DNA from: Octopus sinensis
Lineage: Eukaryota
Reading direction: 5' to 3'
Assembly: GCF_006345805.1 (NCBI RefSeq)
Contig: NC_042998.1
Coordinates: 19,592,001-19,656,000 of the forward strand
DNA length: 64,000 bases
Numbering within the stretch: position 1 is the stretch's first letter; every line of letters starts with the position of its first letter. A program made the position numbers. Positions 1 to 60,000 of this stretch are shown one piece after another.

Positions 1-3000
1 CCCGTCTCCTCTCATAAGCTCGTCCTCCTAGCGTTCATAAAAATATTCGCTTTGCGAATCACTGTTTCAGCGAAGTTGCGTATTGTCCTTGCCCTCGTTA
101 CACGGAGTAGATGAAAAAGGGACAACTGATGAAGGGGAATATTCTTTATGTTGCATATATCGTTTCTCTCTTCGTTTTTTTTCATAATTCAAAAAAGTGC
201 GTTTTGTATGTTTTTGTTTTCGTTTCTCATTGTGTTCAACGTTTCTTGATGTAGGTATGTACATATGCGTATGTATATATATTCATATATATATATATAT
301 ATATATATATATATATATATATATATATATATATATAAAGATGAATAGAGAGAAAGTGAGAAGGGAGAGAGAGTGACTGAGTGATAGTTGAAGAAGAAAT
401 GTCAGATATTTCAATAGTATGTGTGTCTATGTATTCTAGTTTTTATCCAAGCTTTTAGATGTGGCCATTGAATGAACATATAAGAGTCAATATTCTGTTA
501 TCAAAGATGTCTGCTTTTTTTCAGTATTTACGAACAGAATCATATAGAAAAATTATTAAAGTGAATCAATCCGTCATGAATCTTAATTCAATTGACAGAC
601 CGATGTCTTACTTATTATCATGTCTTACTTATTATGGAAAAATTGGTTATATGTATTAATGAAAATGCCACGTGTAAGCAGATGAAATGTGAAATCCAGA
701 ATGATTACTCTAACTACCCAGTATCTTATCTATCAATCAGCTTTGGTATCTACCTCTTAATCTAATAACTTGTCAAACTTCTCGATTTATCAATATGAAT
801 GTGTGTCTGTTAGTACGTATGTCTCCGTCCGTCTCCAGCGATATGTCTGTCACTGTAACTCCATCTCTGTCTGGGTGTGTATACATTCAAACTATATTTT
901 TCTGCTTCAGTCACAAAATTTTCTTTTTATATACATATATATATATATACATACATACATACATACATATATATATATATATATATATATATATATATAT
1001 ATATATATATATATATATATATATATATATATGCGTGTGTATGTATTATGTGTATATGTATGCACACGCGTACACCTCAATCAAAAAGTTCTCTTCTGAT
1101 AATGAAACGCACGTTGCCTTAAGATGTGCAATGATTGATGTGTAAGATAGGGCATATTGTAATAATAATTGTTTTCAGATTTTATAAAAGATTACCATAA
1201 TAGATAGTTCGTTGTTTATTGTATTCCAATTAAAATTACATTTAACCCAACCCAATTTTTAATCAATATATATATATATATTTTAATTATATACAAGCCA
1301 ATATTACTTATTTTCTCTTTATAGAAAATAATTTTGTATATTTTTTAAACCAAATTTTGTTATTTAATTTTATCCGCATTTTTTGGTTAGAAAAAATTTA
1401 AATAATCGATAACTTTGTTTTCGCCTAGGTGTAGGTTTCTAGTTTGATCATAAAACTCCTATCAAACGATATATTTTGAAGATATTTGGGTCTCGACATT
1501 ATTTTTGATTTTTCCCTACTGAATATGAATTACATCAGTAGAAAAAATTAGCATTCGATAATATTCAAAAATTACATTATCGTCATCATCATTATCGTTA
1601 TTAACATCAGCATCATTATCGTTATTAATATTATTAGTGTTATTATTGTTATTGTTGTTATTATAGTTATTATTATTATAGTTGTTGTTGTTGTTGTTAT
1701 TATTATTATTGTTATTATTATTATTGTTATTGTTGTTATTATTATTATTATTATTGTTATTGTTGTTATTATTATTATCATCATCATTGTTATTGTTGTT
1801 ATTATTATTATTATTATTGTTGTTATTATTATTATCATCATCATTGTTATTGTTGTTGTTATTATCATTATTGTTATTATCATCATTATTATTATTATTA
1901 TTATTATTATTATTTTCTGTAATGCCCCACTCTTATTGCAGCTCCTACTTGTTCCACGTACTTCTCAAGATTTTTACTCACTGTTCTCAGAGCTCCGACA
2001 ATTATTGGTACTACTACCACCATCCAGTTGCCCCCCACCTTTTTTATTTTCTAATTTCCTTCCCTTTCCTCACTGAAATTAGTAGTTCTGCCTCTTTTTG
2101 AACAGACTACCGTTTGTTTCAGTTCTTGCAACCATTCAGCATCCTTCTTTGCTCCAGATGTCACCCCCAAAAAACGTTGTTATCATTATTATTATTACTA
2201 TTATTATTAATATTATTATTATAATTATTATTATTATTATTGAGTGAGAGAGAGAGAGCAGTGCAATCATCATCATCATAACATCGAAAAATACCTTAGG
2301 TTCGATTTTTCCCCAAGACACTTGATGAAAGCGGGAGGGTATATCAGCCGGAACGTTGTGTTAACAAACAAGACGAGGACAAGTAAATAATGTACATAAT
2401 TCCACATCTCTTAAATATAGAAGTGTATTATGTGTTGAGTTCAAACTCCACCGGATTTGATTTTCTATTCATCTTTAAGGGGTCGACGAAAGAATTAGCA
2501 TTCGAGCACTAGGGGTGGTGTAGTCGACTAATCCACCCCACCCCCTAAATGTTCAGGCATTTTGCATATCGTAGGAAGTACTATGCTTGGTTTTGTTTTT
2601 GTATTGTTGTTCTGTTCGGTTATTGTGGGAGTTGTATAGTGCCGAAGCTGAACATGTCTGAGAAGTTCCGTGTGTTTGCGACTTGTTTGCCTTTCTATAA
2701 TCTGTTTTTGATTACTTTACTTTTCTGCTTTGTGTCTTGAAACAATTCGTTCTTTTATTCTACGGGGCAAAATGTTAAAACAAAGTAAATTTTTCGAAAA
2801 AATAAAAAATTTCAAAATCGCGTGGTCTTTGTCATTAACTCAGGAAGGTTATGGATTATCAAGGTGAAAACATTTTTTTCGCATTCACCTCCTTCTACAA
2901 AAGATTAGAGATCTAGCAGTAATTAAAAACAGTAGGGACAACAACAACATTATCAATTTGAACAATAACCTCGATAGTAAGAACAACAAAAACATTGACA

Positions 3001-57000: not shown

Positions 57001-60000
57001 AAATTAAAATGTTGAAGTGAATCTCACGGTTTTTGTGTGTATTTATATGGCTTCTAAAAACCTACCACGCTGCAATTGTGTTTGGTCAGCACATGACCTC
57101 AGATCAAGTTACTTGCTACCCAAGTACATCTCCATTATATATATACATAAACACACACACACACACACATATATATATATATATATATATATATATGCAT
57201 ATGTATATATATATATATATATATATATATATATATATATATATATATATATATATATATATATGCATATGTATATATATATATATAATAATAGTTATCG
57301 CCATACTAATATGGCATTCTTATAAAAATAAGAATAAAGCTGTCCGCTTATTAGCTCCATGAGGCCATCGCCTTAAGTTAGCTATTTGATACACAAACTG
57401 TATCCATATAACCTTCGAACAAGGGAGGCCAGTCGCTCCACACTACTTGACCTCCCTTGTTCGAAGGTTATATGGATACAGTTTGTGTATCAAATAGCTA
57501 ACTTAAGGCGATGGCCTCATGGAGCTAATAAGCGGACAGCTTTATTCTTATTTTTATAAGAATTCCATATTAGTATGGCGATAACTATTATTTTCCGGGA
57601 ACGCTGCCGCTGTTCTCTTTTAGAGAGACTTAGTAATTTTAATATTTCTAATATTGAAAACAAGTGGATGTATTCCAACGAAACTAGGTAAATAAAACCA
57701 TCGAACAGAGATTGTCGGAAGCGACACCTACTGGCTGGCTACGCTGCATTGAAAAGGGGCAATACCCCGAAACGCGTCTGTAGCTGCCGGTCAAGTAGTG
57801 TGGAGCGACTGAGCTCCCTTGTTCGAAGGTTATATGGATACAGTTTGTGTATCAAATAGCTAACTTAAGGCGATGGCCTCATGGAGCTAATAAGCGGAGA
57901 GCTTTATTCTTATTTTTATAAGAATGCCATATTAGTATGGCGATAACTATTATTTTCGGGGAACGCTGCCGCTGTTCTCTTTTAGAGAGACTTAGTAATT
58001 TTAATATTTCTATTATATATATTATATATATATATATATATATATATATATATATTATATATATATATATATATGCATATGTATATATATATATATATTA
58101 TATATATATATATATATATCCATATGTGTATATATATATACATATGTATATATATATATATACATATATGCATATGTATGTATATATATGCATATATATG
58201 TATATATATACATATATGCATATGTATGTGTATATATATATATATATATATATATATATATACATATATACATATGCATATATATACACACACACACACA
58301 CATGTATATATATATACATATGCATATGCATATATATATATATATACACACACATATATATATATATATATATATATATATTATATATATATATATACGA
58401 GGGGCTTCTTTTAGTTTCCATCGACCAAATTTACTCACGAGCCTTTGGTCGGCTCGAGGCTATAGCAGAAGATACTAGCCGAAGGTGCCACACAGTGAGT
58501 TTGAACCCCGAACCAAGAAGTTGGGAAACAAGCGTTTTAGCATGCGACCACACCAGCGATTACGTTGATAATATGCCATTCAAGCTTAATATAAAATTCA
58601 AGGAATGTATGATCTGCTTTCTATGCTAATTCTTTTGTTATATGATTTAAAATATCATTATTCTTTTAAAAGCATAATCTTCGTCATTTTCTCGGTATTA
58701 AAGTATTGTGTGTGCTTTTATGACTTTCTGTTTTAAATTTACGATTTTGGATAGTTGTCCATATGGGACTATGCAAGACCTGCTGCATGGAATGCAATTC
58801 TGAGAGATGTACATTGCATAATTATCGTTTACGCATTTTTGCAAAAGTCCACTTCCGGTATCGAATAGAAAAGACGTAATTTCCAAATATCTCTCTGTTT
58901 TATAACCTTGGAATTAATGCAAATTGTTTCTGTGGTGAAAGTGCAAAGAAGAAAGAAAAGAAAAACTAAGAAAAGAAGAAAAAAAAAGAAAAATAATACA
59001 CGACTTCTTTCTTGCTCTTTTGTTTTCCTTTCTAATGCGTTCTCTTTCGCTTTCTCTTCTGTTCCAGGCTCTGTGTTATTTCCCATTTAAGTCTCACATT
59101 CGCTTCACTCTAAAATTAATGATCATTTCGCAAATAACGATAATTCTATTAGCAGTTCTGATAATAATAAATGACATTAGATTTAACTATTTCGACTTGA
59201 CAATTTTAATAATTTTCTAATATTTTATCTTTTGTTGTCAATTATTTTATACAGTGTAGGGTGAAAATCCTGTCTGTTTGTCATATTCATTCACCAGTGT
59301 CCTATATTAATGAAATTTGCATTTCACTAATGAAGTGAACGGCTTTTACTTGAGAGACTGAGATGTAATAGTAATAATATAATTTTATCTTTATATTAAA
59401 AAAAAAATTACAATCAATATTGATTGTATCTAATCTTTCGTTACGTTGCACATTTCAGGAAGATTATTTATTTCGAAATAGGTTTCAGAAACAAGATAGC
59501 AGAACAGATAAGGCTATTCATTAATTTGTCGTGAACAGAAATACTTTAAACACATTTCGTTTTCGTTTCGTCTTAATATGTTTCTAGAAGAAGATATTAC
59601 CGAACAATTTCTCAGTTCTGCTAACACCTAGGCATAGTATGTTTATTGCTTCTCGAGCCATGCCTGGCTCATAAGGGACGTTTTCTCGGTTTCCTTGGCA
59701 TATAGGTTCTGGGTGGGACGCCGGCTTGGCATATAGCATCTGGATGGGACGCCGCTCCGTCGCAGGTGAGCTGCAAGTTGCAGGAGGAAAGAGTAAGAGA
59801 AAGTTGTGGCGAAAGATTCAGCAGAAGTTCGCCACTACCTTCTGCCGGAGCCTCGTGGAGCTTAGCTGTTTCGTTCATAAACACACACATCGCACGGTCT
59901 GAGATTCGAACCCGCGATCCCTTGACCGTGAGTCGGCTACTCTAACCACTAGGCCATGTATCTCCACTAGCATAGTATAGTAATACAAAATTTGTTTTGA

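What the first reader, a model, noticed from the sequence alone, without database searches (positions are those of the whole stretch)
2317..57784. Dense set of hammerhead-ribozyme mini-retroelements: 11 motifs from about 8 unrelated families in 64 kb
Seen: type-I HHR folds at 2317, 7019, 7853, 13530, 13824, 25263, 37355, 42029, 53098, 54009 and 57743. Helices differ between families, yet most have a palindromic helix III and sit in short non-coding inserts bounded by (TA)n/(AAT)n, often with a partial tandem repeat and/or terminal inversion. Established: minimal type-I HHRs with palindromic helix III mark Penelope-like elements and non-LTR retrozymes, and can cleave as dimers. Inference: this genome hosts a large radiation of self-cleaving, microsatellite-targeting non-autonomous elements mobilised by PLE enzymes, possibly via circular RNAs. 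I cannot confirm whether it has been described for this taxon.
Basis: partly seen in the sequence, partly recalled or inferred. Interest (0 to 1): 0.9.

Follow-up and report, generated by a model that had tools for sequence, protein, structure and literature searches.

The report
Penelope-type hammerhead mini-elements beside microsatellites
This AT-rich animal-like stretch holds several short non-coding mobile elements that carry hammerhead ribozyme motifs and sit next to TA or AAT microsatellites, a real pattern that is already well described for Penelope-like retroelements and their small derivatives.

Summary
The motifs are real at the coordinates given, but they are uneven in quality and of a known kind.

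**Motif quality (11 sites)**
- Four are complete type-I hammerheads: 7853(-) and 37355(-) have the canonical core. 54009(-) and 57743(+) have the published U3-A8 covariant core.
- Eight sites fit with at most one defect. In total 10 loci do so, against 0.68 expected in shuffles and 0.63 with decoy cores.
- 42029 is plausible. 2317 is a decayed copy of family A. 25263 is unsupported.
- Family B (7019, 53098) carries A6U in both copies.
- Rfam finds only one weak Hammerhead_1 match, 17.4 bits against a gathering score of 34.

**Context**
- All 11 sites lie 18-292 nt from a TA or AAT array.
- Two loci are partial tandems (1.18 and 1.57 units).
- Four loci have inverted copies.
- No reverse transcriptase or endonuclease ORF was found.

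**Reading**
These features match published Penelope-like element (PLE) min-hammerheads and non-LTR retrozymes: the extra base after A9, the palindromic helix III, pseudo-LTRs, inverted 5'-truncated copies and the (TA)n insertion bias. The best reading is short non-autonomous PLE-dependent elements.

**Not shown**
- Cleavage and circular RNA are untested.
- No locus has two same-strand ribozymes.
- No compensatory change was seen within a family.
- The taxon was not identified.

The parts
7853..7927 (-). Complete canonical type-I hammerhead: helix I 5 bp, helix II 4 bp with a long structured loop, helix III a near-palindrome, H17 = A.
   Evidence: Strict descriptor hit (defects). No Rfam hit at E<=10 in a 1-kb search.
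7673..8304 (-). Element carrying the 7853 hammerhead. It has 98-nt direct repeats (7673-7770 and 8207-8304, 92% identical, spacing 534), which makes 1.18 units. In the ribozyme's orientation the unit's 3' end abuts (TA)n at 7664-7685.
   Evidence: The unit 7684-8214(-) folds at -134.1 kcal/mol, z = -5.26.
37355..37416 (-). Complete canonical type-I hammerhead: helix I 7 bp, helix II 4 bp, helix III 5 bp around a 2-nt centre, H17 = A.
   Evidence: The only Rfam Hammerhead_1 match: 17.4 bits, gathering score 34, E = 2.6 in 4.8 kb. The dimer fold gives the double-hammerhead topology.
37218..37587 (-). Element around the 37355 hammerhead. It is bounded by 50-nt inverted arms (37218-37267 and 37538-37587, 98% complementary) and lies between (TA)n arrays at 37053-37096 and 37589-37637.
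42029..42095 (+). Hammerhead with a canonical core, 6-bp helix I, an 8-nt palindromic helix III and H17 = A. Helix II has two A.G mismatches in its first four positions.
   Evidence: 2 defects, a class at chance level by the descriptor alone. No Rfam hit.
41967..42219 (+). Element around the 42029 hammerhead. It has 24-nt perfect inverted arms (41967-41990 and 42196-42219) and lies between TA-rich arrays (41829-41883 and 42210-42444).
54009..54050 (-). Complete hammerhead with the U3-A8 covariant core: helix I 5 bp, helix II 4 bp, an 8-nt palindromic helix III, H17 = U.
   Evidence: Dimer fold. No Rfam hit. It lies 137 nt from (TA)n at 53851-53872.
57743..57784 (+). Complete hammerhead with the U3-A8 covariant core: helix I 6 bp, helix II 4 bp, a 6-nt palindromic helix III, H17 = C.
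   Evidence: Dimer fold. No Rfam hit in a 111-nt search.
57287..58016 (+). Composite insertion between two (TA)n arrays. It consists of an inverted partial copy (57287-57452, 98% complementary to 57789-57954), a 5'-truncated upstream direct copy (57448-57654, 98% identical to 57810-58016) and a full 362-nt unit (57655-58016) that holds the ribozyme.
   Evidence: The unit folds at -118.8 kcal/mol, z = -5.40.
13530..13575 (-). Family A min-hammerhead: canonical core, one extra A after A9, ACGT helix III, helix I 5 bp, A.C at 10.1-11.1.
   Evidence: No Rfam hammerhead hit.
13819..13865 (+). Family A copy: canonical core, extra A and G10.1-C11.1 are present, but helix III and helix I are disrupted. 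With 13530 it forms an inverted pair around (TAA)n at 13663-13794.
   Evidence: (75-nt inverted arms, 85% complementary).
2317..2362 (+). Decayed family A copy with C3U and A13G. It lies about 75 nt downstream of (TTA)n at 2180-2241.
   Evidence: Self-BLAST gives 89% identity to 13504-13584. Alignment. Coordinates.
7019..7056 (+). Family B min-hammerhead-like motif: core CUGUNGA (A6U), extra A, helix II 4 bp with a tetraloop, ACGT helix III, helix I 5 bp. The element is about 6975-7140, between (TA)n arrays.
   Evidence: No Rfam hit.
53098..53133 (+). Second family B copy with the same A6U core. Within core and junction it differs from 7019 only at N7 and H17, plus one outer helix I pair. The element is about 53067-53232.
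   Evidence: No Rfam hit.
25258..25312 (-).
   Evidence: Hand parse. It is absent from the list of loci with at most 2 defects.

Best explanation
The window holds about seven sequence families of short (about 170-530 bp) non-coding retroelements. Each carries one type-I hammerhead ribozyme of the kind found in Penelope-like elements (PLEs).

Proposed mechanism:
1. A PLE reverse transcriptase with its GIY-YIG endonuclease, encoded elsewhere in the genome, binds the element RNA.
2. It cuts AT-rich or (TA)n DNA and primes reverse transcription there, so the element's 3' end comes to lie against the microsatellite.
3. Extension on both DNA strands and template switching leave a 5'-truncated upstream tandem copy (a pseudo-LTR) and often an inverted 5'-truncated copy.
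4. The hammerhead, whose helix III is short and palindromic, pairs with a second copy in multimeric or neighbouring transcripts and cuts after H17. This may trim multimers to unit length, which a cellular ligase could then circularise.

Shown here:
- The motifs exceed chance.
- Their architecture fits.
- They are associated with microsatellites.
- Tandem and inverted copies are present.
- The inserts lack ORFs.
- Two units fold strongly on themselves.

Inferred, from the literature or by reasoning:
- Dependence on a PLE enzyme.
- Cleavage, action as dimers and circular RNA.
- That the copies are dedicated non-autonomous units.

Several copies (2317, 13824, probably family B with A6U) are likely catalytically dead relics.
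For: Motifs beyond chance:
- 2 canonical hits against 0.03 in shuffles, and 2 of 540 decoy combinations reach 2.
- 2 U3-A8 hits, the only one of 180 combinations to reach 2.
- 10 loci with at most 1 defect against 0.68 in shuffles; 8 against 0.63 for decoys.

Features that my strict descriptor did not ask for, and that Cervera & de la Pena 2014 list for PLE min-hammerheads (passages read):
- One nucleotide between A9 and 10.1, in all 5 copies of families A and B.
- A palindromic 15.2-16.2 or loop 3, perfect in 7 of 11.
- The U3-A8 covariation, in 2 families.
- A pair of motifs on opposite strands about 290 nt apart (13530/13824).

PLE insertion architecture as in Craig et al. 2021 (passages):
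- Partial tandems at 7853 and 57743.
- An inverted 5'-truncated copy next to the upstream copy at 57743.
- Inverted arms at 37355 and 42029.
- (TA)n bias: 11 of 11 sites within 292 nt of an array, against 42% of random intervals within 300 nt.

Other support:
- The anole PLE protein cuts and extends both strands at AT-rich DNA (Frangieh et al. 2024, passages).
- Non-coding: no ORF of 110 aa or more in these inserts that is not low-complexity.
- Two units fold with z = -5.4 and -5.3, as described for retrozyme RNAs.
- The hammerhead block is better conserved than the flanks in families A and B.
- Cofolding of two copies gives the double-hammerhead topology for 37355, 57743 and 54009.
Against: - Rfam's curated models give nothing at gathering score. 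At E<=10 they give one weak Hammerhead_1 match among the 9 sites searched in narrow windows.
- No RT or GIY-YIG coding sequence was found in the window: 10 ORFs had no Pfam hit and no GIY-YIG pattern was found. The mobilising enzyme is therefore inferred.
- No compensatory change within families: 0 of 13 pairs in A, where 9 of 39 cells are simply broken, and 0 of 11 pairs in B.
- Family B has U at the conserved A6 in both copies.
- No locus has two same-strand ribozymes, so none of these loci can by itself give a unit-length or circular RNA.
- In the anole PLE, ribozyme mutants still insert in vitro and no reads end at the cut site. The ribozyme's role is therefore open even in the known family.
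- In family A the microsatellite lies 5' of the ribozyme in all three copies, not at the 3' end.
Confidence: 0.7

Rival explanations
1. The inserts are not dedicated non-autonomous elements. They are severely 5'-truncated copies, or solo pseudo-LTR fragments, of full-length coding PLEs whose hammerhead lies near the element end.
For: - Cervera & de la Pena 2014 state that most min-hammerheads occur as single motifs 'probably related to truncated PLEs' (passage).
- Craig et al. 2021 place the hammerhead in the pseudo-LTR near the 3' end.
- Most families here are single copies, so shared 5' boundaries cannot be tested for them.
Against: - The two family B copies share both ends over about 170 bp.
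- The head-to-tail junctions at 57654/57655 and 8214/8215 define units of 362 and about 531 nt with no ORF. This argues for short complete units.
- Neither point is decisive with so few copies.
Confidence: 0.2
2. Some of the inserts (37355, 42029) are MITE-like DNA transposons with terminal inverted repeats and TA target sites, and they happen to contain a hammerhead motif.
For: - They have terminal inverted arms of 50 nt (98%) and 24 nt (100%), flanked by TA-rich sequence.
- ORFs at 61052-61345 and 20711-20998 recall mariner-type transposases. That likeness is recalled only and is not backed by Pfam.
Against: - A complete canonical hammerhead inside 37355 is far beyond chance.
- The 57743 locus shows that in this window inverted copies go together with direct partial tandems, with the 3' arm internal to the unit. 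That is not a MITE structure, but it is the published PLE structure.
Confidence: 0.05
3. The motifs are chance look-alikes in AT-rich, hairpin-rich repetitive DNA and have no ribozyme ancestry.
For: - Rfam models do not reach threshold.
- The 2-defect class is at chance level: 13 observed against about 12 expected.
- 25263 is unsupported.
Against: - Shuffle and decoy controls reject chance for the sets with 0 defects and with at most 1 defect.
- Palindromic helix III, the extra base after A9 and the U3-A8 covariation are independent published hallmarks.
Confidence: 0.03

Closest known systems
Minimal hammerheads of Penelope-like elements (Cervera & de la Pena 2014, PMC4209133; passages read)
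   Same: - Type-I topology with a short helix I.
- One unpaired base between A9 and 10.1 (families A and B).
- G10.1-C11.1 in family B and in 13824.
- Helix III reduced to a palindrome.
- U3-A8 core covariation.
- High sequence diversity within one genome.
- Mostly single motifs, with some opposite-strand pairs 100-700 bp apart.
   Different: - No RT-encoding PLE flanks them in this window.
- Five of the seven families lack the extra base.
- Two (7853, 37355) have a longer, monomer-competent helix III.
- Family B has A6U.
- Helix II is mostly 4 bp rather than 7-8 bp.
Non-LTR retrozymes of animals (Cervera & de la Pena 2020, PMC7229834, passages; Li, Clavereau & Pollet 2026 preprint, abstract and section 14)
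   Same: - Non-coding, low-GC units of a few hundred bp with one type-I hammerhead.
- Strongly self-paired RNA (z about -5).
- Proposed dependence on PLEs.
   Different: - Retrozymes are defined by tandem arrays, from dimers to multimers, with a ribozyme in each unit, and by circular RNAs.
- Here there are only 1.18 and 1.57 units, and never two ribozymes on one strand.
- The 7853 unit, at about 531 nt, is above the stated 150-450 bp range.
- No RNA data are available.
PLE insertion architecture (Craig et al. 2021, PMC8557442, passages; Frangieh et al. 2024, PMC11167929, passages)
   Same: - Partial tandem (pseudo-LTR).
- Inverted 5'-truncated copy next to the upstream copy.
- Preference for (TA)n or AT-rich targets.
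- At 57743 the inverted copy ends 62 nt short of the direct copy's 3' end, which recalls the optional 'tail'.
   Different: - The published tail is 30-40 bp.
- The elements here have no ORF.
- The (TA)n bias was reported chiefly for Naiads, which lack canonical hammerheads, and for Neptune.
Schistosome Sm-alpha and newt satellite hammerheads (recalled; named in passages)
   Same: Type-I hammerheads in abundant short repeats that act as dimers because helix III is weak.
   Different: Those are high-copy satellite or SINE-like families with one conserved ribozyme. Here there are many unrelated low-copy families, and no tRNA-like promoter was found.

Membership tests
Hammerhead ribozyme, type I | Conserved core: CUGANGA, GAAA, and U16.1 followed by H17 (not G). 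| tested here: met
   - Exact in 5 of 11 sites (7853, 37355, 42029, 13530, 13824).
- U3-A8 covariant in 2 (54009, 57743).
- A6U in 2 (7019, 53098).
- Two or more core changes in 2 (2317, 25263).
Sources: and hand parse.
Hammerhead ribozyme, type I | Three helices around the core, helix I open, helices II and III closed. | tested here: met
   - All helices are contiguous in 4 motifs.
- The excess over shuffles and decoys is shown.
Hammerhead ribozyme, type I | Reaches the Rfam gathering score for a hammerhead model. | tested here: not met
   - 0 matches at gathering score.
- The best match is Hammerhead_1 at 17.4 bits against 34, at 37356-37415.
- There was no hammerhead match for the 8 other sites searched in narrow windows.
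Hammerhead ribozyme, type I | Self-cleavage 3' of H17. | not testable with these tools
   This needs transcription and cleavage assays.
Hammerhead ribozyme, type I | Compensatory changes that keep the helices within a family. | tested here: inconclusive
   0 of 13 pairs (family A, 3 copies) and 0 of 11 pairs (family B, 2 copies) show a change on both sides. There are too few copies to decide.
PLE minimal hammerhead | An unpaired nucleotide between A9 and 10.1. | tested here: met
   Present in all 5 copies of families A and B. Absent in the 5 single-copy families.
PLE minimal hammerhead | Palindromic 15.2-16.2 and loop 3, allowing a dimer. | tested here: met
   A perfect palindrome in 7 of 11 and a near-palindrome in 2 more. 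The cofold dimer has an intermolecular helix III for 37355, 57743 and 54009.
PLE minimal hammerhead | Located in the pseudo-LTR of an RT/GIY-YIG-encoding element. | tested here: not met
   There is no long ORF, no Pfam hit in 10 ORFs and no GIY-YIG pattern in the window. Only 10 of the 136 non-low-complexity ORFs of 70 aa or more were scanned.
Non-LTR retrozyme | Tandem array of at least 2 units, each with a hammerhead on the same strand. | tested here: not met
   There are partial tandems of 1.18 units (7853) and 1.57 units (57743) only, and the repeated part excludes the ribozyme. 0 of 7 loci has two same-strand ribozymes.
Non-LTR retrozyme | Unit of about 150-450 bp, low GC, highly self-paired RNA. 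| tested here: met
   - Units of 362 nt (57743) and about 170 bp (family B) are within range; the 531-nt unit (7853) is above it.
- GC is 31-37%.
- z = -5.40 and -5.26.
Non-LTR retrozyme | Expressed as circular RNA joined at the cleavage site. | not testable with these tools
   No RNA data are available.
PLE-type insertion | Partial tandem and/or an inverted 5'-truncated copy, with insertion into (TA)n or AT-rich DNA. | tested here: met
   - Direct repeats at 2 loci.
- Inverted copies at 4 loci.
- 11 of 11 sites lie within 292 nt of an AT microsatellite. For 8 independent loci, P = 0.0016 that all lie within 300 nt.

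The most novel reading that the evidence does not exclude
This genome may carry PLE-type hammerhead mini-elements at unusually high density (about one per 7 kb in this window) and in many unrelated families.

These include two independent U3-A8 families. They also include a family (B) whose best-conserved block is a hammerhead with U in place of the 'invariant' A6. If that A6U core still cleaves, or serves as a protein-binding or dimerisation module rather than a ribozyme, it would widen what the hammerhead scaffold is used for in retroelements.

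The strongly rod-like units (z about -5) could be templates for rolling-circle reverse transcription of circular RNAs, which would explain the 1.18- and 1.57-unit insertions.
Probability: 0.1. Interest if true: 0.55.

Novelty: new member of a known kind. Interest (0 to 1): 0.3.

Why it matters
The finding shows that a reader without tools can pick out PLE-type hammerheads that Rfam's curated models miss entirely at their thresholds. Standard annotation would therefore leave these elements unlabelled.

For biology it adds little that is new. Hammerheads in PLE ends, their U3-A8 and extra-base variants, their action as dimers, the partial-tandem and inverted insertion structure, the (TA)n bias and the derivation of small non-coding retrozymes from PLEs are all in print.

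It would matter more in two cases:
- If a genome-wide census confirmed the density and family diversity seen here.
- If the A6U family proved to be under selection.

Tried and rejected
**Rfam**
- The whole-window search at E<=10 gave 225 matches, of which 150 are listed. All the top ones are microsatellites matching mir-297-type models, and none of the 150 is a hammerhead. The 75 lower-scoring matches were not shown.

**A covariance model of my own**
- MAFFT could not put the five single-copy hammerheads in register; the GAAA boxes were misaligned. I therefore built no model.

**Taxon**
- Two protein searches found nothing: one with a repeat-derived ORF and one with a transposase-like ORF.
- No collection of eukaryotic genomes was on hand, so the taxon stays unidentified.
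- From memory alone the repeat content reminds me of a cephalopod. No call supports this, and I did not use it.
- The literature search (hammerhead ribozyme, cephalopod, octopus, Penelope) listed no paper on hammerheads in cephalopods. I saw the listing only.

**Other negative results**
- A short inverted piece at 8305-8318 next to the 7853 element is only 14 nt with one mismatch, and a fuzzy search found no 17-mer match. I dropped it.
- SINE-like origin: no tRNA gene or tRNA-like head was found.
- PLE coding remnants: none were found.

**Not checked**
- The closed collections metagenome contigs and viral contigs.
- The genome-contig scan, which I did not use because it holds bacteria and archaea only.
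- The supplements of Cervera & de la Pena 2014 and 2020 and of Craig et al. 2021 (family logos, PLE consensi). They could show whether these very families are already published.

**Papers**
- PMC4209133, PMC7229834, PMC8557442 and PMC11167929: passages found by term.
- 10.64898/2026.07.22.740005: abstract, outline and section 14.
- Lunse et al. 2017 on dimeric PLE hammerheads, and the extra-A viroid hammerhead paper of De la Pena & Flores 2001: recalled or seen only as citations.

Full report
**What the window is.** The window is 64 kb with 31-37% G+C and no N. It has no tRNA gene. It has no open frame of 110 aa or more that is not low-complexity or repeat-derived. Tandem Repeats Finder lists 63 rows, mostly (TA)n, (AAT)n and (TG)n. 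Self-BLAST shows several interspersed SINE-like families. It looks like intergenic or intronic DNA of an animal genome. I could not identify the taxon, because searches found nothing and no eukaryotic genome collection was available.

**The observation.** I parsed them against the standard type-I layout: helix I 5' strand, CUGANGA, helix II hairpin, GAAA, helix III, U16.1, H17, helix I 3' strand.
- Two are complete and canonical: 7853-7927(-) and 37355-37416(-).
- Two are complete with U3 and A8 in place of C3 and G8: 57743-57784(+) and 54009-54050(-).
- 42029-42095(+) has a canonical core, a 6-bp helix I and an 8-nt palindromic helix III. Two of the first four helix II positions are A.G.
- Family A (13530-, 13824+, 2317+) has the canonical core in two copies, one extra A after A9 and an ACGT helix III. 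Each copy has its own damage: A.C at 10.1-11.1 in 13530; broken helices I and III in 13824; C3U and A13G in 2317.
- Family B (7019+, 53098+) has perfect helices, the extra A, G10.1-C11.1 and ACGT. Both copies have U at the conserved A6.
- 25263(-) needs A9G, A13G and a mismatched closing pair, and its helix I is CA/TG repeat. I do not count it.

**Is it more than chance?**
- Strict canonical descriptor: 2 hits against a mean of 0.03 in 200 dinucleotide shuffles. None of the 200 reaches 2 and 6 of 200 reach 1.
- Shuffles destroy the hairpins of real DNA, so I also scanned the real sequence with permuted cores. Of 540 core/box combinations, 2 reach two hits, one of them the true core.
- For the AT-richer U3-A8 core, the true combination is the only one of 180 to reach two hits.
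- I then counted defects, taking U3-A8 as one defect and allowing one optional base after A9. The window has 2, 10 and 23 loci at 0, at most 1 and at most 2 defects. In 100 shuffles the means are 0.00, 0.68 and 12.7, with maxima of 0, 4 and 19.
- The class with exactly two defects (13 observed, about 12 expected) is at chance level. 42029 therefore rests on its extra features, not on the descriptor.
About 0.7 chance hits were expected.
- Caveat: I added the extra-base and U3-A8 options after seeing the candidates, although both are published features.

**Rfam.**
- Nothing reaches a gathering score.
- At E<=10, narrow searches covered 9 of the 11 sites. Only 37356-37415 matched Hammerhead_1, at 17.4 bits against a gathering score of 34.
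- 2317 and 25263 were covered only by the whole-window runs.
- The curated models therefore do not see these motifs. This counts against a simple 'member of RF00163' label. It is also what one expects for minimal variants with long or absent loops.

**Families and conservation.**
- Self-BLAST links only 2317/13530/13824 and 7019/53098. The other loci share nothing detectable. That gives seven supported families.
- There is no compensatory change within a family: 0 of 13 pairs in A, with 9 of 39 cells broken, and 0 of 11 pairs in B, with 21 of 22 cells paired.
- The hammerhead block is better conserved than the flanks. In B it is 35 of 38 identical, against 106 matches, 27 mismatches and 18 gaps outside. 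Fisher's test gives p = 0.003 with gaps counted as mismatches and 0.056 with gaps ignored. Family A behaves similarly.
- In B, two of the three differences in the block fall at N7 and H17, the two positions that are free to vary.

**Context.**
- All 11 sites lie 18-292 nt from a perfect TA or AAT array of at least 12 nt. A random 60-nt interval has a median distance of 411 nt, and 42% lie within 300 nt. For eight independent loci, the chance that all lie within 300 nt is 0.0016.
- At 7853, 98-nt direct repeats 534 nt apart give 1.18 units. The 3' end of the unit, in the ribozyme's orientation, abuts (TA)n.
- At 57743 the order between two (TA)n arrays is: an inverted partial copy (166 nt, 98%), a 5'-truncated direct copy (207 nt, 98%), then the full 362-nt unit with the ribozyme.
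- 37355 and 42029 lie between TA arrays, inside 50-nt (98%) and 24-nt (100%) inverted arms.
- 13530 and 13824 form an inverted pair around (TAA)n.
- No locus has two ribozymes on the same strand.
- The two defined units fold far better than shuffles, with z = -5.40 and -5.26.
- Cofolding two copies gives the double-hammerhead topology, with an intermolecular helix III, for 37355, 57743 and 54009. This is an energy model only, not evidence of activity.

**What is known.**
- Cervera & de la Pena 2014 (passages) describe minimal type-I hammerheads in PLE pseudo-LTRs. These have an unpaired base between 9 and 10.1, G10.1-C11.1, palindromic 15.2-16.2 and loop 3, a U3-A8 core variant, great sequence diversity within a genome, mostly single motifs, and pairs on opposite strands 100-700 bp apart.
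- Craig et al. 2021 (passages) describe partial tandems, inverted 5'-truncated copies next to the upstream pseudo-LTR, an optional tail, and a (TA)n insertion bias.
- Frangieh et al. 2024 (passages) show that an anole PLE protein cuts and extends both strands at AT-rich DNA. They also show that ribozyme mutants still insert in vitro.
- Cervera & de la Pena 2020 (passages) and Li et al. 2026 (abstract and section 14) define non-LTR retrozymes and derive them from PLE pseudo-LTRs.
- Every feature seen here has a published counterpart.

**Explanation.**
- The most likely reading (0.7) is that these are short non-autonomous PLE-dependent elements. They would be inserted by target-primed reverse transcription at (TA)n. 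The hammerhead would be an inherited PLE module that may cut multimeric RNA as a dimer.
- The main rival (0.2) is that they are 5'-truncated remnants of coding PLEs. The shared ends of family B and the head-to-tail junctions argue against it, but not decisively.
- A MITE reading for the two loci with terminal inverted arms (0.05) and pure chance (0.03) are weak.
- The 1.18- and 1.57-unit insertions fit two models equally well: a PLE partial tandem, and rolling-circle copying of a circular RNA. The window cannot tell them apart.

**Verdict.** This is a real feature of a known kind. Interest is modest.

Noticed in passing
window 3885-4120, 9756-9983, 16342-16503, 17808-18021, 19419-19654, 34308-34454, 41305-41631, 52649-52774, 63006-63097: A SINE-like repeat of about 230 bp, present in at least ten copies on both strands (75-88% identical), once as a tandem pair (41305-41450 and 41518-41653). 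It carries no hammerhead motif.
   Followed up: partly
window 42749-43157, 43749-44169, 46327-46752, 49744-50164, 53602-53849, 55006-55150: A second repeat family of about 420 bp (86-92% identical) that carries an internal (TA)n array. Part of the window's TA microsatellites therefore belongs to this repeat and is not a free target.
   Followed up: partly
window 11661-12541: An AAT-rich minisatellite with a 51-bp unit (17.6 copies, 90% matches) and a higher-order period of 300 bp.
   Followed up: no
window 47605-47854 and 63594-63995: Two further local direct repeats: a 123-bp unit twice, and 147-nt repeats 255 nt apart at 92% identity. Neither holds a hammerhead with 2 defects or fewer. They may be partial tandems of other elements.
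   Followed up: partly
window 61052-61345 (+) and 20711-20998 (+): Two short ORFs whose sequence recalls the C-terminal part of mariner/Tc1 transposases. The likeness is recalled only: Pfam gave no hit at E<=0.01, and a protein search with the first ORF found nothing.
   Followed up: partly
window 35973-36121, 45604-45676, 48620-48691, 58116-58339 and others: Sub-threshold Rfam matches to mir-297, mir-3149, mir-466 and mir-1277 (up to 60.9 bits, gathering score 90). They are TA/TG microsatellites folding on themselves and are artefacts, not miRNA genes.
   Followed up: yes
Their helices are all-wobble or AT-only and helix III is not palindromic. They are probably the roughly 0.7 chance hits expected.
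   Followed up: partly
window 5345-5556 and 27826-28036: A 212-nt inverted repeat pair, 94% identical and 22 kb apart. It is a young copy pair of an unclassified repeat.
   Followed up: no
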